Source of the DNA: Thermodesulfobacteriota bacterium
GTDB lineage: Bacteria; Desulfobacterota; WTBG01; CAIYCZ01; CAIRTM01
NCBI GenBank assembly: GCA_028282925.1
Contig: JANQGV010000012.1
Location: forward strand, 7,787-71,786
Length of the DNA stretch: 64,000 bases
Reading direction: 5' to 3'
Shown: piece by piece, positions 963 through 63,434 of the stretch
Numbering within the stretch: position 1 is the first letter of the stretch
How the letters are laid out: the number at the start of each line of letters is the position of its first letter
The notes under the pieces: generated by a model
Seen by the model: the letters and a program-made list of their open reading frames with translations, nothing else
What the model was told of the DNA's origin: nothing
The model's database searches: none
Program-made: the position numbers and the translations under genes

Positions 963-991
963 TTGACTTTTCGGGAATTCTTTTATACAGT
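963..991 (+). promoter_or_regulatory. Putative sigma-70 promoter for the riboswitch-btuFCD operon
   Basis: TTGACT at 963-968, a 17-nt spacer, then TACAGT at 986-991, just upstream of the riboswitch aptamer. Confidence 0.3.
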
Positions 992-999
992 CAAAACAG

Positions 1000-1205
1000 T
1001 TCAGGTGCTCATTTCGAGCATAACAGGGAACTCCGTGTGATTCGGAGACGGGCCCGCCGCTGTAATCGGGGACGAACGCCGCAACCATGTCACTGTTTCG
1101 ATGAATCGAAATGGGAAGACGCGGCCAGTAGAATGATCCGTAAGTCAGAAGACCTACCTGGGCAGAGGACACGACCGCCGTGGCACCGGAGGTTGTCCGC
1201 ATATG
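1000..1205 (+). promoter_or_regulatory. Cobalamin (B12) riboswitch, copy 1
   Basis: Conserved cobalamin-riboswitch elements read directly: AACAGGGAA...GGTGTGATTCGGAGACGGGCCCGCCGCTGTAA, then GTCACTG...GGGAAGACGCGGCC, and the B12 box AAGTCAGAAGACCTACCTGG. It lies directly upstream of a btuF-like gene. Confidence 0.8.
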
Positions 1206-10707: not shown

Positions 10708-10849
10708 CACAGCGCCGCATATAACTTTAGTTGTATGTGAAAAACACACCCTACGTTATATTGACGGCGGGATGCAGGGTGTGAGATACTACAGAAGTAA
10801 TAAAAAGCATATAACCGGGTGCCTTACCGGAAGGATCTTGCGATACTGA

Positions 10850-11045
10850 TCAATATCCCTCGGGTAAGCAAATAGGGAAAACGGTGCAAATCCGTTGCGG
10901 ACCCGCCGCTGTAACCCTGTCCTTTTGTGCGATTTGCAAAAAAGGAACCCTTTGGCCGTAATGCCACTGTTCCGATAGGGCGGAATGGGAAGGTGGTCAA
11001 AGGGGCTGGGAAGCCAGAAGACCTGCCCGGGTAATGAGATCCCAA
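10850..11045 (+). promoter_or_regulatory. Cobalamin riboswitch, copy 2
   Basis: AATAGGGAAAACGGTGCAAATCCGTTGCGGACCCGCCGCTGTAACC, ATGCCACTG...GGGAAGGTGG, and B12 box GAAGCCAGAAGACCTGCCCGG. A close paralogue of copy 3. Confidence 0.8.
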
Positions 11046-26525: not shown

Positions 26526-26589
26526 TCCGTTTTTTATCCACGGTCTGGTATTACATGTCCCTGTTTCCCGAGGGCATGTAACGCTTTTT

Positions 26590-26780
26590 ATCCATACAGG
26601 CAGGTCTTCTGGCTTCCCTGCCCTCTGGCCGCCTTCCCATTCCGACACATCGGAACAGTGGCATGCCAGGCCAAAGGGTTCCCTTTTCTACATCAATAGA
26701 CAAGGGTTGGGTTACAGCGGCGGGTCCGCGACGGTTTTGCACCGGCTTCCCTATTAAGCCACACTGTGGCGCCTGTATTT
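26590..26780 (-). promoter_or_regulatory. Cobalamin riboswitch, copy 3 (minus strand)
   Basis: The reverse complement reads AATAGGGAAGCCGGTGCAAAACCGTCGCGGACCCGCCGCTGTAACC ... ATGCCACTGTTCCGATG ... GGGAAGGCGGCC ... GGAAGCCAGAAGACCTGCCTG. Near-identical in core to copy 2. Confidence 0.8.
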
Positions 26781-26851
26781 AATTGTATGTGCCGGGAGCG
26801 CGTGCTCTCCGGTGTAAACACAGCCGTTTATAAAAGGCTATGTGTTTTTTT

Positions 26852-32625: not shown

Positions 32626-32689
32626 TCCTCAAAACTGTGTATTTATTCCGGAATACCACTTTGCCATGTCGGTACGCCGATAAACTATT

Positions 32690-32835
32690 CAAGCAGGTCT
32701 TCTGACTTTCGGATCATCCTAGTTACCGCGCCTTCCCATTCCGGTGAGCCGGAACAGTGGCTTCGCTACGGTTTTCGTCCCCGATTACAGCGGCGGGCCC
32801 GTACCCGAATTTCACGGGATTCCCTTTAACGCTTT
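32690..32835 (-). promoter_or_regulatory. Cobalamin riboswitch, copy 4 (minus strand), paralogue of copy 1
   Basis: The reverse complement contains ACGGGCCCGCCGCTGTAATCGGGGACGAA (29 nt identical to copy 1), GCCACTG...GGGAAGGCGCGG, and B12 box AAGTCAGAAGACCTGC. Confidence 0.8.
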
Positions 32836-32961
32836 TCAGCGCGCTTGAATACCTATTTTAATCACTTTAGCAAAATGGGGGGAAAAGTCAAGATGTATGG
32901 ATTTTTGCCAAAAAACATGCGTGCTGAAGAACAGCAGTGTGCGATTAAAAAGAATTTCCGG

Positions 32962-50260: not shown

Positions 50261-52354
50261 TCAAAAAAGTATTCCCTTTATGCGCTGTATTTGATGTACT
50301 GTGCGCCAATGTTTTTGCAGACAGGAAGGCTTTTCGGCCATTTTAGCCATCACTCTGTTTCTGATCCTGTTCTGCAGTCCAGCCTTGATGCTTTTACCGA
50401 ACTTCTCCCCGGAAGGATTTTTAATGATTGTACTCAAGGGTAGATAGTCGGTCATGTTTTGAAACGTGCCAAGTTTATGTTGCTTTTCGAGGTCATCGCC
50501 AACCTGATCAAGGTCCAGATCATGTAACCGTTTGCGAGTCAAAAGTCCTTCTAAGGAAAGTCCATGATATGCATAGTATTCATCAAGCATTCCCGGTTTC
50601 TTGATATCAATCCCTTCCGCCCATGAATCAGGTTCAGGCCTTTTGGTGAAAGTATCCGGCTCTTTTTCCATTCCTCTCAGAATATTAATAGTGCGTTCAA
50701 TCTGATATCCTCGCTCTGCCGCTATCAAGAGGTCCTTGCCGTCGACATCAAATCCTGTCGCAGCCCTTACGGCTTCAGCAATATGTTCAGGAAGCCAGTT
50801 GCCATGGGACAGTAAGGTTTGTGAGAGATAAAAACAGGTGCCTATATTGTCATTGATAAGTTTATAGTTTTCATGCCACCAAACGGCCCTGCCCTTTGCT
50901 GTGTGAGAGGAGGTGTCAAACGTTTGAGGCGTGGCTCCGAAAAGCTCTTGAGCAATGATTTTATCATTTGATTGTGCCAGCAGGTGGGGTATGGCCTTCA
51001 AAAAATCGCCGCCCCTGGTGGAAACGGTAAAGGCTAACACATAGGGAGGGGCCGAATTACCAGGCCAGTGCATACCTTTCATGTGAAGTGCATAGCGGGA
51101 AGCATTGCCCCCGATTTTTTCAGCAGCCGACCTGGTGCCTTCTGCCAATATATTGCCTATGCCCTGGCGGCGGGCGACCTTTTCAGCCACTGTTTCCATC
51201 GCCTTCACAGTGCCCCAATTGAGTTCAAGTTCTTCCATGGTCTTCTTATCAAGACTCCCCTGTTTGCCGGCATCTATGGCCATACCGACGGTTCCTGCAA
51301 ATTCCTTGATGTCGATACCCAGAAGGTTTAGTTTATTGACCAGGTGAAGAATTGAGGGGACATCTCGAATGCCCAGGGTAAGGCCTAAGGACATGATATA
51401 GGCAACTTCATAGCCATATCCTTTTTCACCTTTGAATTGTCCTTCTTTGATGGACCAATGCTTGCCGCATTTTAACGGGCAACGGTAACATCCGTGATCC
51501 TTTGATTCCGTTGCTTCATAATAGGCGCCGATATCAAGGGAGGTGATATCCTCATAGGCGACTTTACAACGGCCGTTATTTGCGTAGATCAATCCTTGTG
51601 CGACCACTGGGTTGATAAACATTGCTGTGCCGTATTTTCTGAATAATTTTGGAAAGGCAAGGTCCTGGGTCCATTGTTTCACGCTATCAGATACTTCTTT
51701 CAGCAAGATCGGGTCTTTTATCATTATTTTATTACTACCGAGTACCACGACGGCCTTTAGCTTTTTGGAACCCATTACCGCCCCCATGCCTGTCTGAGAA
51801 AAGCTGTTGGCGTTATTGTTAGACATGATACATGCATATCTGACCAGATTTTCACCTGCCGGACCAATTGTGGCGACAGCAGCGTTTGGATATTGTGCTT
51901 TTAGTATCTTTTGTGTTGTCAGGGTATCTTTCCCCCACAAATTGCCGGCATCTTCAATGGTACAAACACCATCAGGCCCCAAGAGCAGATAACAGGGTTT
52001 ATCTGAAGCGCCCTTGATCATTATGTGATCATAGCCTGAGCGTTTGACCATAACTCCCAAAAAACCCCCGCCATTGGAGTCTCCAAAAATTCCAGTTAGT
52101 GGGCTTAGTGCGGTAAAGGTAGATCGAGAAGCGGTGGGGAAGGGGGTTCCGACAAGTGGGCCTGTCCCAAAAATGAGAGGGTTTCCCGGATCTAAGGCCT
52201 GCACAGACGGTGTAAGATTCTGGTACAGCAACCATGCATTATGCCCGGCTCCACCGGTAAATTTCAGCAACTCATTTTCTGGAAGTTCAAAGATTTTAGA
52301 TTTTCGTTGGCTCAAATCAATCTCCAGCATTTTCCCTCTATATCCAAATGCCAT
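50261..52354 (-). CDS. aor: Aldehyde:ferredoxin oxidoreductase (tungstopterin AOR family)
   Basis: N-terminal MAFGYRGKMLEIDLS...GGAGHNAWLLY typical of AOR; 697 aa; [4Fe-4S] Cys ligands (CYRCPLKC). RBS present. Confidence 0.85.
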   Translation of the reverse strand: MAFGYRGKMLEIDLSQRKSKIFELPENELLKFTGGAGHNAWLLYQNLTPSVQALDPGNPLIFGTGPLVGTPFPTASRSTFTALSPLTGIFGDSNGGGFLGVMVKRSGYDHIMIKGASDKPCYLLLGPDGVCTIEDAGNLWGKDTLTTQKILKAQYPNAAVATIGPAGENLVRYACIMSNNNANSFSQTGMGAVMGSKKLKAVVVLGSNKIMIKDPILLKEVSDSVKQWTQDLAFPKLFRKYGTAMFINPVVAQGLIYANNGRCKVAYEDITSLDIGAYYEATESKDHGCYRCPLKCGKHWSIKEGQFKGEKGYGYEVAYIMSLGLTLGIRDVPSILHLVNKLNLLGIDIKEFAGTVGMAIDAGKQGSLDKKTMEELELNWGTVKAMETVAEKVARRQGIGNILAEGTRSAAEKIGGNASRYALHMKGMHWPGNSAPPYVLAFTVSTRGGDFLKAIPHLLAQSNDKIIAQELFGATPQTFDTSSHTAKGRAVWWHENYKLINDNIGTCFYLSQTLLSHGNWLPEHIAEAVRAATGFDVDGKDLLIAAERGYQIERTINILRGMEKEPDTFTKRPEPDSWAEGIDIKKPGMLDEYYAYHGLSLEGLLTRKRLHDLDLDQVGDDLEKQHKLGTFQNMTDYLPLSTIIKNPSGEKFGKSIKAGLQNRIRNRVMAKMAEKPSCLQKHWRTVHQIQRIKGILF

Positions 52355-52423
52355 GATTTTGCTCCCTTTTTATTTTTTTTGCGGCCGATAAAACCAGGCT
52401 TTGTCGTTCATAGTTTGGATTAG

Positions 52424-52438
52424 GCAACCGACGTGCCA
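52424..52438 (-). promoter_or_regulatory. Sigma-54 (-24/-12) promoter driving aor
   Basis: The minus strand reads TGGCACGTCGGTTGC, which is TGGCAC-N5-TTGC. It lies ~70 nt upstream of the aor start, and a divergent sigma-54 activator gene is adjacent. Confidence 0.65.
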
Positions 52439-52613
52439 AAGCGCTTGATAAAAAATTGTCATTTAATATCAATTATTTATGGTCCGCCAAAAGAATTATA
52501 TGAAAAAGAGCAAATATTATGTGCCATAAAAAACAGTTCTGACTGTATAATATGATAGATATGCATTGCAAGTGCCAAATATGACAAAATTAACGTGCGT
52601 TTAGGAGGAAAGA

Positions 52614-54167
52614 ATGTTGGTAGATGAAAAAGTTTTTTTCCGAGAGGCCACCCTTAGAATTTCCAGCAGCCTGGAGATTGAAAAAGCGTTATGGCAATGC
52701 TTACTCTATATTCAACATTTTGTTCCTGCAGAAGAAGCCTATATGCACTACTATGACCCCGTCTCAGGCGCCTCAATCATATTTGTTGGGGCTGACAGCC
52801 AACAGGGTAAGCTCCTAAATCTCAGCGCTCCCTGGCCCAATGAGTTCCGTGCTCAGGCAGAGCGTGGCCAATTCCCCAAAGCCTTTATTGCAAACAGGGC
52901 TGATGAGCACCCTATGGCTCAGCCAATACTCAAGGCCTTGAAAAAAGGAAAATCATCAATAATGACGGTTCGCCTGACCCTTGAGGATGATTGGGTGGGT
53001 GGTGTGTCCTTTTGGGCAGGCAATCGGGAAAAATTTAATGCGGAACAGTTGGAACTTCTCTCTCTTCTAAGGCAGCCGTTGGCTATTGCCCTCTCAAACA
53101 GCCGCAGGTATCGAGAGCTTCTGGAACTTAAGAATTTGCTGGCAGACGACAACCGCTACCTTCAGAACGAACTTCGTCAAATAAGCGGCGGTGAAATTAT
53201 CGGTGCGGACTTTGGGTTAAGGAGGGTCATGGACCTGGTGCGCCAGGTTGCCCCGCTTGATAGTCCGGTGATTCTTCTGGGAGAGACAGGAACAGGCAAA
53301 GAGCTTTTTGCCAATGCAATTCATAACCTTTCCACCAGGAGTGCAGGTCCTTTTATCAAAGTCAATTGCGGAGCGATTCCGGATAGCCTCATGGACAGCG
53401 AGCTTTTCGGCCATGAAAAAGGTGCCTTTACCGGAGCCATTTCCCAAAAGCGCGGACGCTTTGAAAGAGCAGATGGTGGCACTATCTTTCTTGATGAAAT
53501 CGGAGAATTGTCCCCTGAAGCACAAGTCAGGCTATTGAGAGTGTTACAGGAAAAAGAAATTGAACGTGTGGGCGGTAACAAACCCTTACAGTTGGATATC
53601 AGGGTCATTGCTGCGACACATCGAAACCTTCAGACTATGCTTGAAAAGGGTGAGTTTCGGGAAGACCTTTTTTTCCGGCTACAGGTTTTTCCCATCGCCA
53701 TTCCACCGCTTAGAGAGAGGGTTGACGATATCCCAAACCTGGTGCAACATTTTATGCAAAAGAAAGCGCGTGAAATGAAATTGACGGCAATCCCTACTTT
53801 GGCACCTGCTGCAATAAATCTTTTAATGACCTATTTGTGGCCGGGCAATGTCCGAGAGCTTGAAAACGCGGTGGAACGGGCTTTAATCCTCAGCCGGGGA
53901 AATCCCCTTAGCTTTTCTGAGTTTCAGTCGTTTACAGATAAGTTCCACGATAGCAACAGGTTGCAACCCCTTGAAGCAAAGGAACCTTTGAATCTGGATT
54001 GTGTAATTGCACATCATATTCAAAGGGTTCTCAAAATGACCGGAGGGAGAGTAGAGGGCAAGGGTGGAACGGCGGAGCTGCTGGGGATAAAGGCCAGTAC
54101 TCTTAGGAATCGCATGCGAAAGCTGTCTATACCCTTTGGAAGGAAAGCTGATAGATCGAATACATAA
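52614..54167 (+). CDS. Sigma-54-dependent transcriptional activator (GAF-like sensor + AAA+ sigma-54 interaction domain + Fis-type HTH)
   Basis: Walker A GETGTGKELFA, GAFTGA motif (EKGAFTGA), Walker B IFLDEIGEL, and a C-terminal HTH. RBS AGGAGGAAAGA. Possible extended -10 promoter TGTATAAT at 52546-52553. Confidence 0.9.
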   Translation: MLVDEKVFFREATLRISSSLEIEKALWQCLLYIQHFVPAEEAYMHYYDPVSGASIIFVGADSQQGKLLNLSAPWPNEFRAQAERGQFPKAFIANRADEHPMAQPILKALKKGKSSIMTVRLTLEDDWVGGVSFWAGNREKFNAEQLELLSLLRQPLAIALSNSRRYRELLELKNLLADDNRYLQNELRQISGGEIIGADFGLRRVMDLVRQVAPLDSPVILLGETGTGKELFANAIHNLSTRSAGPFIKVNCGAIPDSLMDSELFGHEKGAFTGAISQKRGRFERADGGTIFLDEIGELSPEAQVRLLRVLQEKEIERVGGNKPLQLDIRVIAATHRNLQTMLEKGEFREDLFFRLQVFPIAIPPLRERVDDIPNLVQHFMQKKAREMKLTAIPTLAPAAINLLMTYLWPGNVRELENAVERALILSRGNPLSFSEFQSFTDKFHDSNRLQPLEAKEPLNLDCVIAHHIQRVLKMTGGRVEGKGGTAELLGIKASTLRNRMRKLSIPFGRKADRSNT

Positions 54168-54250: not shown

Positions 54251-54280
54251 AATGGTAGAGGCGGGGGGAGGCAAACACCC
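54251..54280. repeat. Degenerate copy of a tRNA/tmRNA 3'-end-like attachment-site repeat (direct repeat copy 1)
   Basis: AATGGTAGAGGCGGGGGGAGGCAAAC compared with AATGGTGGAGGCGGGGGGAGTCGAAC at 58132: about 24 of 27 positions identical, same orientation, 3.85 kb apart. Confidence 0.5.
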
Positions 54281-55314: not shown

Positions 55315-56022
55315 ATGCATGCTCAATCCACAAAACAGTTGACAAAAGACGGTACAAAAACGCTGATTGCCCCGTTCCGGTGGACGGCTGCGATGGCGCT
55401 CTGTTTCTTTCTGGCTGCGGGTCGGCTGGATGTTCCCAGGGCCTGGCTGTTTTTCGGCATCTATCTTACCGGCGCAATTGCGGGCGCAGCGATCATGCGG
55501 CGCTATGCCCCGGATCTGGCAAACCGGCGGGCCTCGATCAAGGAGGGAACCAAGACCTGGGACAAGGTGTTTTTGGCTGTATACTTCCTGATCTCATTGT
55601 TTGTCGCCCCGATAGTTGCCGGTCTGGATGTGGGCAGATACCAGTGGTCGTATCTGGGGCCGTCATTCGCAATCATCGGTTTCGTCCTCTATGCCGCTTC
55701 GTTTGTGCTGGCATACTGGGCAATGGTGGTAAATGAACATTTTGAAGCAACCGTTCGAATTCAAACAGACCGGGGCCATAAGGTCATTACCACAGGGCCG
55801 TATCGATTTGTGAGGCATCCGGGCTACCTGGGTATGATCATCGGCGGGTTCGGGGTCTCGTTTCTTCTCGGCTCAGCCTACTCGCTCATTCCCGTTGCCG
55901 GAGCAACACTTGCCGTGGTGGTCCGGACGTATCTTGAAGACCGGCTGCTGTGCAACGAGCTGGAGGGATATGCCGACTATGCCCGGACAACCCGGTACCG
56001 GCTGATAATCGGTGTCTGGTGA
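55315..56022 (+). CDS. Membrane methyltransferase of the ICMT/PEMT family (distant paralogue of ORF 49218-49712)
   Basis: Multiple TM segments and the C-terminal motif GPYRFVRHPGYLGMIIGGFG...EDRLL...E. Confidence 0.7.
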   Translation: MHAQSTKQLTKDGTKTLIAPFRWTAAMALCFFLAAGRLDVPRAWLFFGIYLTGAIAGAAIMRRYAPDLANRRASIKEGTKTWDKVFLAVYFLISLFVAPIVAGLDVGRYQWSYLGPSFAIIGFVLYAASFVLAYWAMVVNEHFEATVRIQTDRGHKVITTGPYRFVRHPGYLGMIIGGFGVSFLLGSAYSLIPVAGATLAVVVRTYLEDRLLCNELEGYADYARTTRYRLIIGVW

Positions 56023-56170: not shown

Positions 56171-57829
56171 TTACCGGTTGCACCCATATCCTTTGATAAT
56201 TTCTCCCCATTTTGCATCCACCTGTGCCAGGGCGTCAGGCGCCCCCTGTTCAAGCAGCGTGCGGTTCAGCTCCGGATACACATCCGGGCCGCCCTCTTCG
56301 GGCCATTGCCGGGTGGCGTCGATAACGATCTTGCTGGTCTTGCCGCGCACCTTCGAGCTTGGGTCCAGAGGTAAGCCCCGCGCCTCCTTGATAATGTGAC
56401 TGGCGGTGCCGGGCAGCCAGCGCGTGATAAGGGAATTATCCACCTGGGCCGAGTCCAGGATATCGATATCCTCGTCCACAACGATCACCACCTTGAAGAT
56501 CGGTACCATAGAGGCCAGCTTTTTGCCGGCTTCGAGGCCCTGGCCCGCGGCCGTTTTTTTTATCCGGACATATGTTAGGCCGGGAGCGTGGACCGGGGAA
56601 TGCAGCTCGATCAGCTGAGGAATGAACCGCTTAAATGCAGTGTTGAAAATCACTGCGGTGGGGCCTGTGACGAATCCCCGGGTCGCACCGGTAAACACAT
56701 TCAGGAGCCAGGGGTCTTGGCGGTGGGTCACCGTCGTGACGTTCATGAAAAAGTTCTCTTTCTTCTGCGGTCCCAGATAACCGCACATCTCGCCAAAAGG
56801 TCCCTCGGGAAGTCCGGGCTGGTCCAGCGGGATTTCACCCTTAATGACGAGCTCCGCGTGAGCAGGAACCAGAATATCGCTGGTTTCACAGCGCACGACT
56901 TCCAGCGCCTTGCCCCGCAGCCCGCCTGCTATGGCCAGCTCGTCGATGGGTCCCTTGCGCCTGCGATTGGCAACCTTTGAGCCGCTGACCACCCATACAT
57001 AGGGATCCTGGCCCAGCACAAGCGCGACTTTGGCGCTTTTTTCGCCCCGCTTTTTGGCCGCCATCAGATGTTTCCAGCCGGTCTGGTTCGGTTCGGGATT
57101 GATGCCGATGATACGGGGCCCCCGGAGCTGGCATCGATAGGTGCCGAAATTCATTCCCATCTTCGGGTCAGAGGTAAAAACCGAGGCCGAGTTGATGTAG
57201 CGCCCTCCATCGGAAGGGTTGCTCTGTATAAAGGCAAAGCGGGTGACATCGACCTCATTCCCCCGCAGCACGACCTGTTTACACAGGGCCTGTTCCTTTT
57301 GAACTTCAATAGGCTTGATCGGCGGATACTCGCCTTTCTTCAACCGCCCCTGAAGGTGAGCCATTGCTTTGCGATAGGTCCCGCGGGGGTCACCGGGAAT
57401 CGGCTCCACTCCGAAGAGGATAGCTTCGGTATCCAGGTGCCCCTGGTGATTAGCAACCAGCGGCCCCCGGACCCACTGTCCGTTGATTTTAACCTGTTCG
57501 GCCAAAATTGCCGGTGCTTCTTCATGGCCGTATTCATCAATAAGCCGGTACATCAGGGCGCTCATTTCATAGGCATCCTGATCCAGTTTTTCAAAGCGCA
57601 GCAAAAGGCCGCGTTCCTCAAGGGCCCTGACATAGTCACGAAAGGTGTCGAACGGCGCCGACAAGGTGGCCGTTCGCGATGTTGTGCCTGCACCTGATGC
57701 AGGGGAGGGGGATCGGGTCCCTAATACGCAGCCGGCGGTGACAGCGGCTACGCCGACAGCGCCGGTGGTCAGAAAGTTACGTCGGGATATGCTGCAACTG
57801 CTTTTTACGGAGTGCGTTTTTTCAGCCAT
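56171..57829 (-). CDS. UbiD-family (prFMN-dependent) decarboxylase with a twin-arginine (Tat) signal peptide. True start MAEKTH at 57829, with a GGAGG RBS
   Basis: Tat motif SRRNFLTTGAVGVAAVTAG. UbiD core with EGPFGEMCGYLG (compare the canonical EGPFGExTGYY) and ELAIAGGLRGKALEVV. Confidence 0.8.
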   Translation of the reverse strand: MAEKTHSVKSSCSISRRNFLTTGAVGVAAVTAGCVLGTRSPSPASGAGTTSRTATLSAPFDTFRDYVRALEERGLLLRFEKLDQDAYEMSALMYRLIDEYGHEEAPAILAEQVKINGQWVRGPLVANHQGHLDTEAILFGVEPIPGDPRGTYRKAMAHLQGRLKKGEYPPIKPIEVQKEQALCKQVVLRGNEVDVTRFAFIQSNPSDGGRYINSASVFTSDPKMGMNFGTYRCQLRGPRIIGINPEPNQTGWKHLMAAKKRGEKSAKVALVLGQDPYVWVVSGSKVANRRRKGPIDELAIAGGLRGKALEVVRCETSDILVPAHAELVIKGEIPLDQPGLPEGPFGEMCGYLGPQKKENFFMNVTTVTHRQDPWLLNVFTGATRGFVTGPTAVIFNTAFKRFIPQLIELHSPVHAPGLTYVRIKKTAAGQGLEAGKKLASMVPIFKVVIVVDEDIDILDSAQVDNSLITRWLPGTASHIIKEARGLPLDPSSKVRGKTSKIVIDATRQWPEEGGPDVYPELNRTLLEQGAPDALAQVDAKWGEIIKGYGCNR

Positions 57830-58074
57830 GGATAACCTCCATTGGGTGGAAAAAGAAAAGATTGTTAAATTAATCAATGTATAGTGAGATGTCTTTTTGA
57901 TGATTAATTTTAAGTGGAAAATATAGATAAAACACATTGATGTGTCAATAGAAGTGAACCTGCCCTTTGCAAGAACTAAAATCCGAATGATTTTTGCCTA
58001 ACAATATACTGGGACGAATAAGGGACATAATTATTTTCAGGAAGGATGGTTTTCTATTAAACATGGCGGTGGTG

Positions 58075-58138
58075 CACCATTCGACTCACGTTGTTCACTC
58101 AGGGTTTACCATGAGCGAGCGTAGCGAGTCGAATGGTG
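58075..58138. repeat. Long imperfect hairpin (13-bp arms, ~38-nt loop) abutting the att-like repeat
   Basis: CACCATTCGACTC at 58075-58087 is the reverse complement of GAGTCGAATGGTG at 58126-58138. The GAGTCGAA core recurs a third time at 58151. Confidence 0.45.
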
Positions 58139-58158
58139 GAGGCGGGGGGAGTCGAACA
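58136..58158 (-). repeat. Fragment of the 3' terminus of a tRNA/tmRNA (T-loop, T-stem 3' half, acceptor 3' half, ACCA), probably an attachment-site scar at the island boundary
   Basis: The reverse complement reads TTCGACT-CCCCC-CGCCTCC-A-CCA: a T-loop fitting TTCRANY, five Cs, a 7-nt acceptor half, discriminator A, then CCA. It has no matching 5' half (no GGGGG before the T-loop), so it is a 3' fragment and not a gene. The AT-rich DNA begins at 58161. Confidence 0.55.
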
Positions 58159-58324: not shown

Positions 58325-59398
58325 CTATAATATTTCGTACTTCCAATAATCTTTAATCGGGATTCCGTAATCGTTGGCATTTTTTAAGTCATAGGTAACT
58401 TCAAAAGTGCAACACATGCATTTTATCTGCCAGCTGTATTTATATGCCCGCTCATATCTACCATCAGGGGTCTCTCCTTCCACCTCAATATTATCATAAA
58501 CGACCAAGGCCGTTACTCCGCACACAGGACATTTATCTATTTGTTCAAAATGATTTTTTTGGGCTTGTGCTGCAGCTTCTGACTGTTTGATTATCTCGTT
58601 ATTTAAGAACTTTCCATGCATTTTTTCATCTGTAATTGGATTTTCGTATGCTGCTCTACCTAGTGCTTTTGCATAAGCGAATTTACCGACATCATAATCA
58701 TTTTTTTCATTATATAGAAAATCCAAAGGATCAAAATTTATATTCAACGGTTTGTATTTCCATAATATGTTTCGCCCCCTATATCTATCTAGTGCAATAA
58801 CTTTTCTCAAAAAGGGTAAAAAATATTTGCAGATGAATTTGTCTAATGAATCATATCTCAGAATAAAGGATCCTCTATGCCAAATTCTGTTTCTTAGGGT
58901 ATTTAACTTTTCCAACATATTTTTTTTATCAATGATGAATTGATATGATAAATGATTTTCAATTTCTTCATTTTTTATAAGATCAGCTAACCTTTTTAAT
59001 GACTCCGAAAATTCGATTGATCTGATGCCTGATTCTTCTTCGGGTCTTAACTGTTCCCCGGTGAGAAGTTTTTTTAAGACTATTGTTTGTGTTGAGGCAG
59101 TGTCTGCCAACAATGGATGTACGGTCCTGAGAATATCTTTTATTATAAGTTCTGTAAAATGATGAAGGTGTAATATGGTTTCAGCTGCATATTCAAAATA
59201 CTCAAAATGTGTGTTGAAGTCCTTTTTTTCGTTATCTTCATCATTCATGAAAACACTTAGGCTATACTTCATTGCTTTATACGTAGAAAAGTAGGCATGA
59301 AGTCCAAGCCTAAGCGAATAAAATGCAAACCCAGCGATGTTTTTTTCTCTTTTGTCTAATAGTATACCGTCTTTACAAATTCTGGAAAGTTCTAACAT
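58325..59398 (-). CDS. Hypothetical protein with a HEPN-like Rx4H motif and a C-terminal Cys4 zinc-ribbon; candidate Abi/defence RNase
   Basis: LRNRIWHRG contains the R-N-x3-H motif typical of the HEPN family. C-terminal CPVCG...(26 aa)...CMCC. AT-rich codon usage like the rest of the island. Confidence 0.5.
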   Translation of the reverse strand: MLELSRICKDGILLDKREKNIAGFAFYSLRLGLHAYFSTYKAMKYSLSVFMNDEDNEKKDFNTHFEYFEYAAETILHLHHFTELIIKDILRTVHPLLADTASTQTIVLKKLLTGEQLRPEEESGIRSIEFSESLKRLADLIKNEEIENHLSYQFIIDKKNMLEKLNTLRNRIWHRGSFILRYDSLDKFICKYFLPFLRKVIALDRYRGRNILWKYKPLNINFDPLDFLYNEKNDYDVGKFAYAKALGRAAYENPITDEKMHGKFLNNEIIKQSEAAAQAQKNHFEQIDKCPVCGVTALVVYDNIEVEGETPDGRYERAYKYSWQIKCMCCTFEVTYDLKNANDYGIPIKDYWKYEIL

Positions 59399-59603: not shown

Positions 59604-62531
59604 TCAGCCCTTAAGTAATTCTCGAAATTCAAGATAACCACGACTGCCCAGATAATGAATAAAATCCTCAGCCGCTGAAGCTGCTGGTGATCGTAGAACC
59701 TTTATCAAGATAGACTTTGCATGGTCACGCCAGCCATATACGCCCCAGCCTTCCCGATCACCTCTAGCCATCAGTTCAAGGCAGGTAACAGTCTCGGTTG
59801 GCATTGAAGGAGCAAGTTCTTCTAGCTTTTCCAACACTTCGTCTTCCGGCTCAATCTTCCCGGCGATCCTTATTGCTTCAATCAATTGTGCCAGTGCCCA
59901 GCAATCATCATAAACACCTGAAGCAAACCACCATCCGAATTCTCGCATTTCATATTTATACTTGTCATGTTCCGCACTCTCTTTGGCAGCTGCAAGTCTC
60001 TCTTCCCAAAATAGTTTTAAACGATCTAGGATTTCAGGCAATACTGTTTGCTTATAATCATACAAGCTTCGACCTACGTATTCTACAGCATCTCCCCGTA
60101 GTTCAGGGTCTGCCTTTTCCCAAAATTGATCAAATATAACCCTAGTTTCTTCACCGCTAAGTTTGCCTCGCCAATAAAGTGTCATTACATGCTCAGCGAG
60201 ATGCCTGTCCGCATCATATATGCTGTGACCGCTACCCTGTATATCAATCTGCTTAACAGCATACTTGTACTGGTCTGTAAGTAATTCAAAGACATTATCA
60301 TACACGGAACAGTAAACAACGTAAGTATTCCATGCTGCATAAAAATATTTTTCAGAAAGGTTATCCAATGGAAAGATGTTGAATATCTGCTCAGCAGACC
60401 AACTAGAATCAAGCAGAACCAGCCAGGGGAACCATTGACCATAGACGGCCCTGATTGCAATGGAGGGATCTTTTGATACATCAAGATGGCGCTCAAGCAT
60501 TGTTCGCACTTCTTGCATTTCATCAAAGCCACGGCTGATAAGCTCTGGTGAATCAGATTGCTTATCAAAATATCGTCGGAGCCAAAGAGCATAACGCACA
60601 ACAGCATGCATTGCTTCACCGCGGGTCGTGTTGATAGAAAGGGTAACCGGATCCAAGTTTTCATCACCATACTGTTCTTCATCCTCCGGTGCCGGATCAG
60701 GGTCGTCTGTCAGCGACTCAAGTATTTGCCATACGATTTCACGATCTTCTATAGCAAAGCCTCCAACCTCTTCATCGAACCCAGCTGACAAAAGTCCTGC
60801 AATGGCCTTCCGAGTCCAGCCCCAGTCAGGGTCCATATCAAAATCCTTGTCTGGCCTGCCAGGTATCTCGTGTGGCTGATCCATTATCCAGCGGCAAAGA
60901 TCAATTACAGATTTCCATTGAAAATATTTACCTAATTTTAAAGCCGATTGAAGACCGGATAACAATGACCGCACATATGTTGGATCAAGTTCTTTAAAAG
61001 AATGGGCGTTTTTTGCATATGTTTCTGGGTTTTGAGTTGCAATCGCGGAAAGTTCTCTGCCCAAACCTTCAGGAGAAGATTTAAAAGGACCCTCAGGCGG
61101 TGCCCATGTTCTGAGGAATTCGACAAGTTCTTCAATCGACATTTTTTTTAAATTTTCAGCGTTTACAGGGCTTGTCGGCCCTACCCAACTGCATGTGATT
61201 CTTCCCTCAGGTTTTGGTTCTCCATATTCTGATACCAATTTATCATAATACGTTTTCCAGCCTTCAGGCAGACTCTCTTTAATCCAATTGAGCCGAAAAA
61301 GTTGCCAGGTCTTTGTATATCGTGCGTTGTCATCATCGGTAACCTTTTCGCCGGTTCTCCGTTCTCTACTTTGTTTATATGAAGCCACTTCCGGTCCTTG
61401 TTCAATCCAACTCAATATTTTTTGTTTCTGCGCAATAGTTAAATTATCAAAATGTTCTCTGATTAACAGCGAATATTCATGTTCTAAGCATCGGTCATTG
61501 AACAGTTCCATAGATGTAAGATAGTTTGCAGCTGTCTCCGGAACAACATTAGAGTACAATCGTAGTATGTGGAGGGATATGCGTTTGAAAATTTTCCATG
61601 GATAGCGTTCAAGTGTTTGAATTAGTACAGGAACTTTGGATGTATCCTGCTGTGCAATCTGCTCAGCCCCAGCACGTACTGCTTTAACCAAGGCATGGTT
61701 GATTCTGCGGCCACGGTTCTGTTCATTCTCCTCAACAGACGGGCGCCATATATAGGAATAATCTTCAAAACCGTTATCCTTTGTATTTCTGCCTGACAAG
61801 TCAATGTAGGATTGCAGCAGATCACAGAACAGCTCTAACGCTTCAAAATCACCTGCTCGAACAAGCTCGGGCATAATCTTTTCTAGAATTTTATTATATT
61901 GGTAATTATCAAACCTGGCTTTTGGCTCATAAGGATAACTATGTTTTTGTTCTTTCTCTGAATCGTTTTTTGAATGTGAATCCGGCAGGATTTCAAACAT
62001 CACCCGGGCCAAGTCCAAAGCAGACGCTGTTTGTCCACCCTTTGCCAAGTTTACTATAAAGTGAGCAAGTTTTTCTGTAAGTGACATTTGATATTTTGTG
62101 CCCGCCCAAGTTTTAGCTTTATCCAGTAATCTGACAGAAATTTCAGGCGGCATCTTAATGGCCACATCCGCAAGGTCTTCATACACCCGGACATTATTCG
62201 TATCCGGTATCTGCAAAACAATTGCAAGAACCTTTTCCGGTTCGATTGCAGCCATCCGAGCCAGATAGCGTGATTCTGGCCAAGGGGGTAGGCTGATTGT
62301 TCCTTTAACTTCATCAATCTCAGCTTTTGGTGGTTTTGTAAAAAAACCCTCTGTTTTAAGGGGGTCTATCCACTCAGGAGCATCAAGTCGATCAAAAAAG
62401 TACTTGCAAACACCTTCATCTTCTATAAGTTTTTTTATTCTCTCTAAGCTATCTGCAATTGGATGTTGTATGAGCAATCTATCTATTTCGCTTATTCTGT
62501 TAAAAAATTTATCTTGGCTCAATTCACCCAC
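59604..62531 (-). CDS. Large (975 aa) all-helical protein, translationally coupled downstream of the SIR2 gene; candidate sensor/partner subunit (DSR2 C-terminal-domain analogue?)
   Basis: No Walker A/B or other catalytic motif. Trp-rich and predicted alpha-helical throughout. Its start codon lies 7 nt after the SIR2 stop. Confidence 0.6.
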   Translation of the reverse strand: MGELSQDKFFNRISEIDRLLIQHPIADSLERIKKLIEDEGVCKYFFDRLDAPEWIDPLKTEGFFTKPPKAEIDEVKGTISLPPWPESRYLARMAAIEPEKVLAIVLQIPDTNNVRVYEDLADVAIKMPPEISVRLLDKAKTWAGTKYQMSLTEKLAHFIVNLAKGGQTASALDLARVMFEILPDSHSKNDSEKEQKHSYPYEPKARFDNYQYNKILEKIMPELVRAGDFEALELFCDLLQSYIDLSGRNTKDNGFEDYSYIWRPSVEENEQNRGRRINHALVKAVRAGAEQIAQQDTSKVPVLIQTLERYPWKIFKRISLHILRLYSNVVPETAANYLTSMELFNDRCLEHEYSLLIREHFDNLTIAQKQKILSWIEQGPEVASYKQSRERRTGEKVTDDDNARYTKTWQLFRLNWIKESLPEGWKTYYDKLVSEYGEPKPEGRITCSWVGPTSPVNAENLKKMSIEELVEFLRTWAPPEGPFKSSPEGLGRELSAIATQNPETYAKNAHSFKELDPTYVRSLLSGLQSALKLGKYFQWKSVIDLCRWIMDQPHEIPGRPDKDFDMDPDWGWTRKAIAGLLSAGFDEEVGGFAIEDREIVWQILESLTDDPDPAPEDEEQYGDENLDPVTLSINTTRGEAMHAVVRYALWLRRYFDKQSDSPELISRGFDEMQEVRTMLERHLDVSKDPSIAIRAVYGQWFPWLVLLDSSWSAEQIFNIFPLDNLSEKYFYAAWNTYVVYCSVYDNVFELLTDQYKYAVKQIDIQGSGHSIYDADRHLAEHVMTLYWRGKLSGEETRVIFDQFWEKADPELRGDAVEYVGRSLYDYKQTVLPEILDRLKLFWEERLAAAKESAEHDKYKYEMREFGWWFASGVYDDCWALAQLIEAIRIAGKIEPEDEVLEKLEELAPSMPTETVTCLELMARGDREGWGVYGWRDHAKSILIKVLRSPAASAAEDFIHYLGSRGYLEFRELLKG

Positions 62532-62537
62532 CTCCCT

Positions 62538-63434
62538 TTATATGTCAAAGCCACTTTTAAAAGGTGCTGGCCTTTTTTTCATATCACTATGTTCAACACA
62601 TCCGCGTAGTATTTCTTCAAGCCCCCTAAAATCATCACCTTTTGGATCAAATATGATTGGTTCAATTTCCAAAGCGCTAAAAAGGGCTATCATTTCATCA
62701 TATTCTTCTTTTTGTTCCCCAGTCTTTTGATTTAATGCCGGCCACAAAATGTGTTTAGTAAATATTTTCGATATGCTTGTTTTTGGTTTGATCTCCAATT
62801 GAATTGTATTCGCATATGTGATTAACTCACTAAGATATCTTTCTGTTGGATTAAACCCAATGAATAACACTTTTTCATAAACAAAAAGGTTCAGTAAAAA
62901 CCCTGGCAATAAGCTTTCTTTGCCATACGCACCTTTAAAAGCCCTTTGACCAAAAATCAATTTGTGGTGTTCGTAATTATTCTTTTCAGAGTCATAGCAT
63001 CCATGAATATAATACAAAGCCTGTTCCAACCCTTTCGACATAGATATATCTGGATAAGCATATCTTGCATTGATATCTTCATGCCTGAAGTGATTCTCAA
63101 CCCAAGGATCAAAATTTGTTGTGATAAAAGCTTTAAAAGGGAGTCGTGGTATATAATTTAAAGCTGGTCTGGAAGTTGCAATGTCTTTTGGGAAGAATTC
63201 TTGAAATGTTTTTTCATATTCTGATGGATTAGCATCAAAACATGCATCAATAACCTGTGGTAGGTTCTCAGAGTCAAAATCAACCCTACAACGGTCTGCA
63301 ATTTTCTTAACGCTTTCTTTCCATAGCTCCCCCGGAGGAATAGATAATCCTGCACCAAAAAAGACAATACAGTCCCCACCTAAAACAACTTTTTTTATTT
63401 TGTCAATCGCATCTGTTTCTGCAGTGCGTTTCAT
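62538..63434 (-). CDS. SIR2-family (defence-type SIR2_2-like) NADase-domain protein
   Basis: Rossmann motif VFFGAGLSIPPGELW, ITTNFDPW (compare TTNYD of ThsA/DSR2 SIR2 domains), catalytic-His context YYIHGCYD, and VLFIGFNP (compare FIGYS). 298 aa. Confidence 0.75.
   Translation of the reverse strand: MKRTAETDAIDKIKKVVLGGDCIVFFGAGLSIPPGELWKESVKKIADRCRVDFDSENLPQVIDACFDANPSEYEKTFQEFFPKDIATSRPALNYIPRLPFKAFITTNFDPWVENHFRHEDINARYAYPDISMSKGLEQALYYIHGCYDSEKNNYEHHKLIFGQRAFKGAYGKESLLPGFLLNLFVYEKVLFIGFNPTERYLSELITYANTIQLEIKPKTSISKIFTKHILWPALNQKTGEQKEEYDEMIALFSALEIEPIIFDPKGDDFRGLEEILRGCVEHSDMKKRPAPFKSGFDI

What the first reader, a model, noticed from the sequence alone, without database searches (positions are those of the whole stretch)
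56171..57829. UbiD-family decarboxylase carrying a Tat signal peptide
SRRNFLTTGAVGVAAVTAG is a canonical twin-arginine leader on an otherwise typical UbiD-fold enzyme (EGPFGEMCGYLG). UbiD enzymes need the prFMN cofactor made in the cytoplasm, and Tat export of the folded holoenzyme would fit this. Periplasmic or extracytoplasmic UbiD homologues are rare and may act on aromatic or phenolic substrates outside the cell. The gene sits inside the putative older island, and no ubiX is visible nearby.
Basis: partly seen in the sequence, partly recalled or inferred. Interest (0 to 1): 0.5.

Follow-up and report, generated by a model that had tools for sequence, protein, structure and literature searches.

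The report
Tat-exported, lipid-anchored UbiD-family decarboxylase
This gene encodes a normal-looking UbiD-type (prenylated-flavin) decarboxylase with a conserved twin-arginine export signal and lipoprotein anchor, and it belongs to a widespread, unstudied clade that probably works outside the cytoplasm, where no enzyme of this cofactor class has been described.

Summary
Window 56171-57829 (minus strand) encodes a 552-aa protein with its own near-consensus sigma-70 promoter and a GGAGG ribosome-binding site. Residues 58-552 form a confident UbiD fold, closest to VdcC, E. coli UbiD and HmfF. The Arg-Glu-Glu catalytic network and the Asn/Glu metal ligands are invariant; the usual metal-binding His is Gln. 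A disordered 23-residue Ser/Thr/Pro tether follows.

The leader is not chance. R-R is present in 111 of 119 anchored sequences (118 homologues plus the query), and the 8 without it are N-terminally shorter. 73 have the lipobox Cys. The clade occurs at 347 loci in species-representative genomes, mostly uncultured Gamma- and Deltaproteobacteria. It is sharply separated from cytoplasmic UbiDs. It has no conserved neighbours, no VdcD-like subunit and almost never an adjacent ubiX.

Best reading: the enzyme is loaded with cofactor in the cytoplasm, exported folded by Tat, and lipid-anchored facing the periplasm, where it (de)carboxylates an unknown aromatic or unsaturated acid. Export, cofactor and substrate are inferred, not shown. 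I found no literature precedent. It is a new variant of a known kind, of moderate interest.

The parts
56171..57829 (-). CDS of the UbiD-family protein: 552 aa plus stop codon at 56171-56173
   Evidence: ORF list. Pfam UbiD, UbiD_C and UbiD_N. Same 552-aa product in the public gene call (P0391).
57920..57948 (-). Sigma-70-type promoter, TTGACA-17-TATATT (11/12 match)
   Evidence: It places the upstream in-frame ATG (57937) before the transcript start. The gene is monocistronic, because the next gene downstream is convergent.
57836..57840 (-). Shine-Dalgarno sequence GGAGG, 6 nt before the ATG at 57829
   Evidence: Sequence read directly.
57731..57829 (-). Signal peptide, residues 1-33: n-region MAEKTHSVKSSCSIS, twin-arginine motif, Gly/Ala/Val/Thr-rich h-region
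   Evidence: TIGR01409 scores 19.3 bits against a cut-off of 16.7. Pfam TAT_signal and UCR_Fe-S_N hits are below their cut-offs. pLDDT is below 50 for residues 1-51.
57770..57787 (-). Twin-arginine motif S15-R16-R17-N18-F19-L20
   Evidence: R16 and R17 are invariant in A1. Across the 111 sequences with the motif, Ser at -1 is 86%, Phe 71% and Leu 84%.
57728..57739 (-). Lipobox T31-A32-G33-C34; Cys34 is the predicted lipidated first residue of the mature protein
   Evidence: Fits the PROSITE PS51257 pattern by manual check of the sequence. A lipobox Cys at the equivalent place occurs in 73 of the 111 leader-bearing sequences.
57659..57727 (-). Disordered Ser/Thr/Pro/Gly/Ala-rich tether, residues 35-57
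   Evidence: Low pLDDT. Composition and a clade-wide linker of median 28 residues between Cys and the folded domain.
56174..57658 (-). Folded UbiD catalytic body, residues 58-552 (prFMN-binding domain plus oligomerisation domain)
   Evidence: AF2 mean pLDDT 83 and pTM 0.81. Foldseek top hits are ShVdcC 7ae7/7ae5 (E 8e-39, TM 0.83), E. coli UbiD 5m1d and HmfF 6h6v.
57134..57151 (-). N227-F-G-T-Y-R232, equivalent to A. niger Fdc1 N168 (metal ligand) and R173 (ionic network)
   Evidence: Alignment to Fdc1, whose sequence was verified against 4za4. Invariant in 34/34 clade members.
57083..57088 (-). N248-Q249 at the position of the Mn2+-ligand His (Fdc1 H191, VdcC H185, HmfF H169)
   Evidence: N-Q-T is invariant in A1. 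A clade representative has N-H here, and many generic UbiD representatives have Q-D.
56939..56941 (-). E297, equivalent to Fdc1 E233 (Mn2+/K+ ligand)
   Evidence: invariant in 34/34.
56789..56806 (-). E342-G-P-F-G-E347, equivalent to Fdc1 E277 and E282 (catalytic acid/base of the R-Xn-E-X4-E network)
   Evidence: invariant in 34/34. The role of the network is described in PMC5818171.
58134..58157 (-). tmRNA/tRNA-Ala-like 3' end fragment GTTCGACTCCCCCCGCCTCCACCA. It is an att-like repeat at the border of the low-GC defence island, about 190 nt upstream of the promoter.
   Evidence: 0 matches expected by chance. Not called as a tRNA or tmRNA.
54253..54276 (-). Degenerate second copy of the same 24-mer (3 mismatches). 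With the copy at 58134-58157 it brackets the DedA-like, ICMT-like and UbiD-like genes.

Best explanation
The gene encodes a catalytically competent UbiD-family (prenylated-FMN-dependent) reversible decarboxylase that works outside the cytoplasm.

Proposed pathway:
1. The apoprotein folds in the cytoplasm. There it binds prFMN, made by a UbiX encoded elsewhere in the genome, together with its metal ions.
2. The S-R-R-N-F-L leader targets the folded, possibly oligomeric, enzyme to the Tat translocase.
3. The lipobox (TAG|C34) is then processed by Lgt and signal peptidase II. The mature enzyme hangs from the membrane by a lipidated Cys34 and a ~23-residue flexible tether, facing the periplasm.
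4. It (de)carboxylates an aromatic, heteroaromatic or alpha,beta-unsaturated acid using the conserved Arg232-Glu342-Glu347 network. The likely substrate is an exogenous or periplasmic compound, for detoxification or scavenging.

Shown here: gene structure and start, UbiD fold, conserved catalytic and metal residues, leader anatomy and its clade-wide conservation, stand-alone gene organisation.

Inferred: actual Tat export, lipidation, prFMN occupancy at export, and substrate class.
For: Start and expression signals:
- SD, promoter and an identical public gene call.

UbiD identity:
- Pfam and NCBIfam hits.
- PDB sequence hits to HmfF, VdcC and E. coli UbiD.
- AF2 model with pTM 0.81 and Foldseek TM 0.83 to VdcC.

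Active site:
- N227, R232, E297, E342 and E347 map to Fdc1 N168, R173, E233, E277 and E282 and are invariant in 34/34.
- PMC5818171 shows the Glu-Arg-Glu network is required for catalysis and cofactor maturation.

Leader:
- TIGR01409 scores above its curated cut-off.
- R-R is present in 111 of the 119 anchored sequences, and all 111 fit the S-R-R-x-F-L consensus. R16 and R17 are invariant in A1.
- The 8 sequences without R-R are N-terminally shorter; several start inside the h-region, i.e. mis-called starts.
- 73/111 have a lipobox Cys followed by a low-complexity linker. The leader and tether are disordered in the model.

Clade structure:
- Only this clade among 107 full-length UbiD representatives has a leader.
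- Its nearest leaderless relatives score 254-463 bits, against 590-776 within the clade. This points to one evolutionary acquisition that has been kept under selection.
- The clade has 347 species-level loci. Identity between Delta- and Gammaproteobacteria is 55-60%, which suggests a conserved specific function.

Tat fits the biology because it exports prefolded, cofactor-loaded proteins (established knowledge).
Against: - There is no experimental localisation, and I had no dedicated predictor (SignalP/TatP).
- Pfam TAT_signal is just under its gathering score (21.2 vs 22.7). TIGR01409 detects only 7 of 34 clade members at E<=0.01, although it is a short, insensitive model.
- The Mn2+-ligand His is replaced by Gln249. 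Cofactor and metal binding could therefore differ, although Gln is common at this site in other UbiD representatives.
- No ubiX lies in the window, and ubiX is within 10 kb in only 2 of 88 loci. prFMN supply is assumed, not shown.
- No conserved neighbours, transporter or Tat chaperone give a substrate clue.
- 38/111 clade members lack the Cys, so lipid anchoring is not universal.
- A few members (P0026, P0027, P0030, P0038) seem to have lost the leader.
- Several characterised UbiD enzymes are O2- or light-sensitive. That makes an exposed location less obvious for the aerobic members of the clade.
Confidence: 0.6

Rival explanations
1. The protein is exported or anchored by Tat, but it is not a classical prFMN/Mn2+ decarboxylase. 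The changed metal site (Gln instead of His) and the lack of a linked ubiX would mean it carries a different cofactor state (plain FMN, another metal, or none). Its periplasmic role would then be binding, non-decarboxylative or otherwise divergent.
For: - N-Q-T is invariant at the His position.
- TIGR00148 scores below its curated cut-off, 207 vs 244.85.
- The clade is well separated from all characterised enzymes, with no more than 27% identity to any solved structure.
- HmfF was crystallised with FMN (6h6v), so UbiD folds can hold unmodified flavin.
Against: - The whole Arg-Glu-Glu network and the Asn and Glu ligands are invariant under long divergence. That would not be expected if catalysis were lost.
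- Gln or Gln-Asp at the His site is frequent in generic UbiD representatives, and one clade representative keeps His.
Confidence: 0.17
2. The leader is not cleaved and serves as an N-terminal membrane anchor, as in the Rieske protein. Alternatively it is cleaved by signal peptidase I to give a soluble periplasmic enzyme. Either way the protein is not a lipoprotein. This changes the anchoring step only, not the exported-decarboxylase reading.
For: - A weak hit to the Rieske Tat-anchor family PF10399 (E 1.7e-4, below cut-off).
- 38/111 clade members have no Cys and end the h-region with AxA-like sequences, so the function does not depend on lipidation.
Against: - The window protein fits the lipobox pattern exactly (T-A-G-C34 with an uncharged h-region before it).
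- All its closest relatives at 70-92% identity keep the Cys.
- A Ser/Thr/Pro tether follows, as is typical of lipoproteins.
Confidence: 0.12
3. The enzyme is cytoplasmic. Either the real start lies downstream of the leader, or the RR stretch is an inert N-terminal extension or a tether to the inner face of the membrane for quinone biosynthesis.
For: - All characterised UbiD enzymes are cytoplasmic or peripherally membrane-associated (established knowledge).
- JGI names relatives '4-hydroxy-3-polyprenylbenzoate decarboxylase'.
- A few relatives lack the leader.
Against: - SD and promoter fit the ATG at 57829.
- No in-frame start with an SD lies between the leader and the conserved domain, which begins at P59.
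- The leader is conserved as protein, with invariant R-R, across more than 100 homologues.
- The positive-inside rule would put the domain outside.
- The UbiD equivalog model NF008175 scores 109.6 against a cut-off of 788, and the MqnL model scores 151.7 against 495.9. It is therefore not the quinone-pathway enzyme.
Confidence: 0.06
4. The gene is a decaying passenger in an old tmRNA-integrated island and has no current function in this organism.
For: - att-like repeats bracket the segment.
- An IS91 transposase fragment lies next to the gene in the closest relatives.
- The neighbourhood varies between loci.
Against: - The ORF is full length and collinear with homologues, with no frameshift.
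- The promoter and SD are strong.
- All catalytic residues are intact.
- GC and GC3 are like core genes.
Confidence: 0.05

Closest known systems
VdcC, the UbiD-like subunit of vanillate/4-hydroxybenzoate decarboxylase VdcCD (Sedimentibacter hydroxybenzoicus; PDB 7ae4, 7ae5, 7ae7)
   Same: - Best structural match (Foldseek E 8e-39, TM 0.83).
- Best profile match in the PDB (181.8 bits).
- Same three-domain fold, the same N-x-G-T-Y-R and E-G-P-F-G-E motifs, and a conserved Glu metal ligand.
   Different: - Only 25% identity.
- The NCBIfam VdcC model scores 197.7 against a cut-off of 650.
- VdcC is cytoplasmic, needs the Zn-ribbon subunit VdcD and is encoded with a UbiX-type VdcB (PMC8379154).
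- Here there is no VdcD-like or UbiX-like neighbour, and there is a Tat/lipobox leader.
- Gln replaces the His metal ligand.
E. coli UbiD (4-hydroxy-3-polyprenylbenzoate decarboxylase; PDB 2idb, 5m1c-e)
   Same: - Same fold and the same R-Xn-E-X4-(E/D) network.
- This is the name given to relatives by JGI's automatic annotation.
   Different: - The equivalog model NF008175 scores 109.6 against a cut-off of 788.
- 26% identity.
- E. coli UbiD has no signal peptide and acts on a membrane-bound polyprenyl substrate from the cytoplasmic side.
- The automatic name is an over-annotation.
HmfF, 2,5-furandicarboxylate decarboxylase (Pelotomaculum thermopropionicum; PDB 6h6v, 6h6x)
   Same: - Best single-sequence PDB hit (4e-36).
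- Same fold and catalytic motifs.
- An example of a UbiD enzyme acting on a small soluble heteroaromatic diacid.
   Different: - 25-27% identity.
- Cytoplasmic, with no leader.
- Has His at the metal site.
Cofactor-containing Tat substrates, including the known Tat-dependent lipoproteins of Streptomyces and haloarchaea (from general knowledge, not tested here)
   Same: - S-R-R-x-F-L motif and a moderately hydrophobic Gly/Ala-rich h-region.
- A cargo that must fold and bind a complex cofactor before export.
- A lipobox directly after a Tat h-region.
   Different: - The cargo cofactor would be prFMN with Mn2+/K+. I could not find this described for any Tat substrate.
- No dedicated chaperone gene is linked.

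Membership tests
UbiD family of prFMN-dependent (de)carboxylases (Pfam PF20695/PF01977/PF20696; TIGR00148) | Three-part UbiD architecture and fold | tested here: met
   Pfam UbiD 5.9e-51, UbiD_C 1.4e-19 and a weak UbiD_N. AF2 pTM 0.81, and Foldseek TM 0.80-0.86 to VdcC, UbiD and HmfF.
UbiD family of prFMN-dependent (de)carboxylases (Pfam PF20695/PF01977/PF20696; TIGR00148) | Conserved R-Xn-E-X4-(E/D) ionic network (Fdc1 R173, E277, E282) | tested here: met
   R232, E342 and E347 are invariant in 34/34 clade members. The motif definition is in PMC5818171.
UbiD family of prFMN-dependent (de)carboxylases (Pfam PF20695/PF01977/PF20696; TIGR00148) | Metal/phosphate site ligands (Fdc1 N168, H191, E233) | tested here: inconclusive
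   N227 and E297 are invariant, but the His position holds an invariant Gln249 (N-Q-T). Gln also occurs at this site in many other UbiD representatives, and His occurs in one clade representative. The ligand assignment for Fdc1 comes from my knowledge of the 4za4 structure paper and was not re-read here.
UbiD family of prFMN-dependent (de)carboxylases (Pfam PF20695/PF01977/PF20696; TIGR00148) | Score above the curated family cut-off of TIGR00148 | tested here: not met
   207.1 bits against a cut-off of 244.85. The Pfam domain cut-offs are passed, so this is a divergent subfamily rather than a non-member.
UbiD family of prFMN-dependent (de)carboxylases (Pfam PF20695/PF01977/PF20696; TIGR00148) | prFMN supplied by a UbiX-type flavin prenyltransferase in the same genome; measured decarboxylase activity | not testable with these tools
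   No ubiX is in the 64-kb window. The rest of the genome is not available. ubiX lies within 10 kb in only 2 of 88 loci.
Tat (twin-arginine) signal peptides | Z-R-R-x-phi-phi motif between a polar n-region and an uncharged h-region | tested here: met
   S15-R-R-N-F-L20 is followed by 13 uncharged residues. TIGR01409 scores 19.3 against 16.7. Pfam PF10518 scores 21.2 against 22.7, just below its cut-off.
Tat (twin-arginine) signal peptides | Conservation of the motif in orthologues | tested here: met
   R-R is found in 111 of the 119 anchored sequences. Among those 111, Ser at -1 is 86%, Phe 71% and Leu 84%. R16 and R17 are invariant in A1.
Tat (twin-arginine) signal peptides | Tat-dependent export; tatABC present | not testable with these tools
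   This needs reporter fusions or fractionation, and the whole genome.
Bacterial lipoproteins (signal peptidase II substrates; PROSITE PS51257) | Lipobox [LVI..][ASTG..][GAS]-C within the first 35 residues, after an uncharged stretch, with K/R in the n-region | tested here: met
   T31-A32-G33-C34, no charged residue from 18 to 33, and K4 in the n-region. This was a manual pattern check on the sequence. The Cys is conserved in 73/111 leader-bearing sequences and in all relatives at 70% identity or more.
Bacterial lipoproteins (signal peptidase II substrates; PROSITE PS51257) | Lgt/LspA processing and acylation | not testable with these tools
   This needs palmitate labelling, globomycin treatment or mass spectrometry.
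VdcBCD-type hydroxyarylic acid decarboxylase | VdcC equivalog score, plus adjacent VdcD (Zn-ribbon) and VdcB (UbiX-like) genes | tested here: not met
   NF041204 scores 197.7 against a cut-off of 650. No VdcD- or VdcB-like neighbour is present. The small Cys-rich ORF next to the closest relatives is an IS91 transposase fragment.
Quinone-pathway decarboxylases (UbiD proper, NF008175; MqnL/SCO4490, TIGR03701) | Equivalog-level score | tested here: not met
   109.6 against 788, and 151.7 against 495.9.

The most novel reading that the evidence does not exclude
This is the first recognised clade of extracytoplasmic prFMN enzymes. A UbiD-type decarboxylase would be loaded with prenylated flavin and metal in the cytoplasm and exported as a folded, possibly oligomeric, holoenzyme by Tat. 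In many members it would be lipid-anchored, and it would decarboxylate (or carboxylate) exogenous aromatic or unsaturated acids in the periplasm. Candidate substrates are plant- or humic-derived phenolic acids, or carboxylated redox-active antibiotics. This would add prFMN to the list of cofactors carried by Tat cargo and would open a compartment not previously considered for this chemistry.
Probability: 0.5. Interest if true: 0.65.

Novelty: new variant of a known kind. Interest (0 to 1): 0.5.

Why it matters
All characterised UbiD/prFMN enzymes work in the cytoplasm. The cofactor is made there by UbiX and is labile.

A conserved, widespread clade (347 species-level loci) with a Tat leader, often a lipobox, and an intact catalytic site would have several implications:
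- Holo-prFMN enzymes can be exported, which would be a new cargo type for Tat.
- Reversible (de)carboxylation of aromatic or unsaturated acids also happens in the periplasm of many uncultured Gamma- and Deltaproteobacteria from sediments, soils and waters.
- This bears on the turnover of phenolic and humic acids and on detoxification.
- It also offers biocatalysis a naturally secretion-compatible UbiD scaffold.

The idea is directly testable with standard leader-fusion and co-expression experiments.

The finding also corrects an over-annotation. Many members are named 4-hydroxy-3-polyprenylbenzoate decarboxylase, which the equivalog scores do not support.

Tried and rejected
1. Conserved gene neighbourhood. 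I clustered all ORFs within 7 kb across 82 loci and read Pfam contexts of six look-ups. There was no conserved partner. The top family (SDR) occurs in 18/82 loci at varying positions, and the trp and mod genes reflect lineage synteny.

2. VdcD-like small subunit. The Cys-rich ORF downstream in L001-L004/L006 is an IS91 transposase Zn-finger fragment. A 2-TM Zn-ribbon ORF occurs in only about 9 gamma loci and not in the window.

3. Linked ubiX. There is none in the window, and only 2 of 88 loci have one within 10 kb.

4. Sigma-54 control by the nearby activator. No good -24/-12 site lies upstream of the gene; the good sites lie upstream of the AOR gene.

5. tRNA/tmRNA at the island border. ARAGORN and Rfam call nothing, so only a 24-nt 3'-end fragment is present. 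No ssrA lies near the gene in relatives.

6. Codon-position test of leader translation against L006/L001. It was uninformative, with only 9 differences split 3/3/3.

7. 'Loss of the Mn2+ His means an inactive enzyme'. I rejected this after seeing Gln at this site in many UbiD representatives and His in a clade representative.

8. Identifying the source organism. The exact protein is in NCBI on a 95-kb contig but carries no name. The nearest named relatives are Deltaproteobacteria MAGs.

9. Literature. Seven full-text searches and one paper check found no description of a Tat-targeted or periplasmic UbiD.
Full report
**1. Observation**

The window has a minus-strand ORF at 56171-57829 encoding 552 aa.

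The mechanical ORF extends upstream to an ATG at 57937, but three things point to 57829 as the start:
- GGAGG lies at 57836-57840, 6 nt before the ATG at 57829.
- A near-consensus sigma-70 promoter (TTGACA-17-TATATT, 11/12) occupies 57948-57920 on the same strand, so the upstream ATG lies inside it.
- The public gene call for this exact sequence has the same 552-aa product (P0391 on a 95-kb NCBI contig).

The next gene downstream is convergent (ICMT-like, 55315-56022 +), so the gene is monocistronic.

**2. It is a genuine UbiD-family enzyme**

- Pfam gives UbiD (5.9e-51), UbiD_C (1.4e-19) and a weak UbiD_N.
- NCBIfam gives the general UbiD model at 207 bits, below its 244.85 cut-off. All equivalog models fall far below theirs: VdcC 197.7/650, MqnL 151.7/495.9, UbiD proper 109.6/788, phenylphosphate carboxylase about 97/470-565. 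It is therefore a divergent subfamily with no assigned function. The name '4-hydroxy-3-polyprenylbenzoate decarboxylase' that JGI gives to relatives is not supported.
- The best solved relatives by sequence are HmfF (4e-36), VdcC and E. coli UbiD.
- An AlphaFold2 model built on a 34-sequence clade alignment has mean pLDDT 83 and pTM 0.81. Residues 1-51 are disordered and about 55-549 are confidently folded.
- Foldseek against the PDB returns ShVdcC (E 8e-39, TM 0.83), E. coli UbiD and HmfF, then Fdc1, AroY and InD.

**3. Active site**

I verified the A. niger Fdc1 sequence against 4za4 (499/500 identical as I recalled it, then corrected). I aligned it, together with E. coli UbiD, VdcC and HmfF, to the clade.

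| Fdc1 residue | Role | Window protein |
|---|---|---|
| N168 | metal ligand | N227 |
| R173 | ionic network | R232 |
| E233 | Mn2+/K+ ligand | E297 |
| E277 | ionic network | E342 |
| E282 | catalytic acid/base | E347 |

All five are invariant in 34/34 clade members. The Glu-Arg-Glu network is the family's catalytic signature and is also needed for cofactor maturation (PMC5818171).

The one deviation is the Mn2+-ligand His (Fdc1 H191, VdcC H185, HmfF H169). The clade has an invariant N248-Q249-T250 and no His. This is unlikely to be disabling:
- One 50%-identity clade representative has N-H at this position.
- Many unrelated UbiD representatives have Q-D.
- A Gln side-chain oxygen can ligate a divalent metal (general chemistry).

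It does leave the identity of the metal open.

**4. The leader**

The N-terminus is laid out as follows:
- Residues 1-14: polar n-region.
- Residues 15-20: S-R-R-N-F-L.
- Residues 21-33: uncharged Gly/Ala/Val/Thr-rich h-region.
- Residues 31-34: T-A-G-C, which fits the lipoprotein lipobox.
- Residues 35-57: VLGTRSPSPASGAGTTSRTATLS, a low-complexity tether that is disordered in the model.

The conserved domain begins at A58-P59-F60-D61.

TIGR01409 (TAT_signal_seq) passes its curated cut-off (19.3 vs 16.7). Pfam TAT_signal is just below (21.2 vs 22.7).

The decisive evidence is comparative. Among the 120 best homologues (55-92% identity, 545-580 aa) plus the query, 119 have the mature-domain anchor and 111 of those carry R-R. 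Around the motif, Ser at -1 is 86%, Phe 71% and Leu 84%.
- The 8 exceptions are N-terminally shorter. Some start inside the h-region (mis-called starts), and four seem to have deleted the leader.
- 73 of the 111 have a lipobox Cys, including all relatives at 70% identity or more with a leader. 38 end in AxA-like sequences.
- The linker from Cys to the fold has a median of 28 residues.
- R16 and R17 are invariant columns in alignment A1.

A cleavage/anchor site exists. No in-frame start with a ribosome-binding site lies between the leader and the conserved domain.

**5. Extent and separation of the clade**

A scan of one genome per species found 347 loci. The best 80 are all MAGs, mainly Gammaproteobacteria (Steroidobacteraceae, Chromatiales, Acidibacter, Nevskiaceae, Oceanicoccus) with some Delta- and Alphaproteobacteria. 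Several genomes carry two paralogues.

In an exhaustive search of 1.84 billion 50%-identity representatives, the family splits clearly:

| Group | Bit score | Leader |
|---|---|---|
| Clade representatives | 590-776 | Tat plus lipobox in P0121, P0123 and P0124 |
| Leaderless intermediates (P0128, P0131, P0134, P0139) | 254-463 | none |
| Generic UbiD proteins | 220 or less | none |

Among 107 full-length representatives, only the clade has a leader. This points to a single acquisition of the leader that has been retained under selection. The unusually high sequence conservation (55-60% identity between Delta and Gamma members) suggests a specific conserved function.

**6. Context**

There is no conserved neighbour. 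ORF clustering over 82 loci gives at most 18/82 for any family (an SDR at variable positions), and the rest is lineage synteny.

Pfam contexts are heterogeneous:
- RND and MacB efflux systems with a TetR regulator.
- Methyltransferases.
- Runs of small detoxification-type enzymes (GST, glyoxalase, cupin, acetyltransferases).
- Metallophosphoesterases.

ubiX is absent from the window and lies within 10 kb in only 2 of 88 loci.

VdcC needs the Zn-ribbon subunit VdcD (PMC8379154), but no such gene is linked here. The Cys-rich ORF beside the closest relatives is an IS91 transposase fragment.

In the window the neighbours are a DedA/VTT membrane protein and an ICMT-family methyltransferase. They are not conserved with the gene elsewhere.

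The sigma-54 activator and AOR gene further along have their own -24/-12 sites and are unrelated to this gene.

**7. Island question**

Upstream of the promoter, at 58134-58157 (minus strand), lies GTTCGACTCCCCCCGCCTCCACCA. This is the T-arm half plus acceptor 3' end of a tmRNA or tRNA-Ala-like gene (a G3:U70-compatible T, A73, CCA).

A degenerate copy with 3 mismatches lies at 54253-54276 on the same strand; 0 matches are expected by chance. No intact tRNA or tmRNA is in the window.

Beyond 58.16 kb the GC drops to 0.39, and the genes there are a split DSR1-type defence sirtuin. That is a young defence island, and its border is the 58-kb repeat.

However, the gene's GC (0.58) and GC3 (0.67) equal those of core genes such as the methionine synthase and RND pump genes. 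Any acquisition is therefore old. This point stays open.

The IS91 fragment next to the 86%-identical relatives and the variable neighbourhoods are consistent with mobility.

**8. Mechanism proposed**

Shown: the gene structure, fold, catalytic residues, leader anatomy and leader conservation.

Inferred, in order:
1. Folding and prFMN/metal loading in the cytoplasm, because UbiX and its substrates are cytoplasmic.
2. Tat export of the folded enzyme.
3. Lgt/LspA processing at Cys34, followed by tethering to a membrane facing the periplasm.
4. Reversible decarboxylation of a soluble aromatic, heteroaromatic or unsaturated acid through the Arg232-Glu342-Glu347 network.

The substrate is unknown. 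The stand-alone organisation and the frequent efflux and detoxification neighbours weakly favour handling of exogenous acids rather than a step in a dedicated catabolic operon.

Rivals (details in the rival section):
- An exported protein with a divergent cofactor or metal state.
- An uncleaved anchor or a soluble periplasmic form instead of a lipoprotein.
- A cytoplasmic enzyme.
- A decaying island passenger.

**9. Comparison and novelty**

It works like a UbiD enzyme and passes the fold and catalytic-network tests for the family. It fails every equivalog test for the characterised members (VdcC, UbiD, MqnL, PpcA/B, BagN).

What is different is the compartment. Seven full-text searches found no report of a Tat-targeted, periplasmic or lipoprotein UbiD/prFMN enzyme. 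The only trace is NCBI's automatic label 'twin-arginine translocation signal domain-containing protein' on one relative.

I classify it as a new variant of a known kind. It is of moderate interest (0.5) because localisation, cofactor and substrate are all still inferred, but the hypothesis is sharp, conserved across hundreds of species and easy to test.

Noticed in passing
window 58134-58157 (-) and 54253-54276 (-): Two direct copies, one exact and one with 3 mismatches, of a tmRNA/tRNA-Ala-like 3' end (GTTCGACTCCCCCCGCCTCCACCA). They look like att remnants of tandem integrations at an ssrA or tRNA gene that must lie beyond the window end. The 54-kb copy keeps more of the upstream T-arm (GGACGGGTGTTTGCCTCCCC).
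   Followed up: partly
window 59604-63434 (-): The low-GC (0.39) island encodes a split DSR1-type defence sirtuin. It consists of a 298-aa SIR2 ORF (hits to ThsA, LmuA and Dsr1) followed by a 975-aa ORF matching Dsr1 profile positions 295-1119 (4e-57).
   Followed up: partly
window 58325-59398 (-): A 357-aa ORF in the same island has no Pfam or PADLOC hit. It has a C-terminal CxxC...C cluster and may be an accessory to the Dsr1-like pair.
   Followed up: no
window 58078-58135: An inverted repeat (CATTCGACTC...GAGTCGAATG) lies directly next to the att-like fragment. Its only Rfam hit is a spurious miRNA match (E 0.23).
   Followed up: no
window 52423-52438 (-) and 52562-52577 (-): Two sigma-54 -24/-12-like sites (1 mismatch each) lie upstream of the aldehyde:ferredoxin oxidoreductase gene (50261-52354 -). 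A GAF/sigma-54 activator is transcribed divergently (52614-54167 +). This is a likely regulator-target pair in a lower-GC (0.45) block.
   Followed up: no
window 986-1175 (+), 10800-11044 (+), 26582-26791 (-), 32675-32863 (-): Four cobalamin riboswitches occur in one 64-kb window. They sit in front of ABC/TonB-type uptake genes, a CobN/ChlI-ChlD-like chelatase pair and large secreted proteins, which suggests an unusually dense B12-regulated region.
   Followed up: no
L001 11529-11876, L002 6719-7039, L006 6342-6689: In the closest relatives (86% identity), the UbiD-like gene's 3' end overlaps an IS91-family transposase N-terminal Zn-finger fragment. This indicates a mobile context.
   Followed up: partly
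L019 11612-11896 and 8 other gamma loci (L005, L009, L013, L014, L015, L018, L021): A conserved ~94-aa ORF with two predicted TM helices and a CxxC...CxxC zinc ribbon lies about 70 nt downstream on the same strand. It is a possible lineage-specific partner of the exported UbiD and is absent from the window.
   Followed up: partly
15 loci, e.g. L037 9578-9859, L005 9671-9916, L087 6982-7239: A small GIY-YIG-domain ORF lies directly upstream on the same strand in many gammaproteobacterial loci. This is probably synteny rather than function.
   Followed up: no
proteins P0026, P0027, P0030, P0038: Four close clade members (69-75% identity) keep the polar n-region but lack the RR motif, h-region and linker. 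These are apparent secondary losses of the leader, or assembly or gene-call artefacts, and would be natural controls for localisation.
   Followed up: no
L020/L083 (JAYZVL010000015.1), L070/L075 (CP070671.1), L025/L077, L023/L060, L034/L074, L012/L039, L016/L068: Several genomes carry two diverged paralogues of the Tat-UbiD clade, which suggests diversification of substrate specificity within the clade.
   Followed up: no
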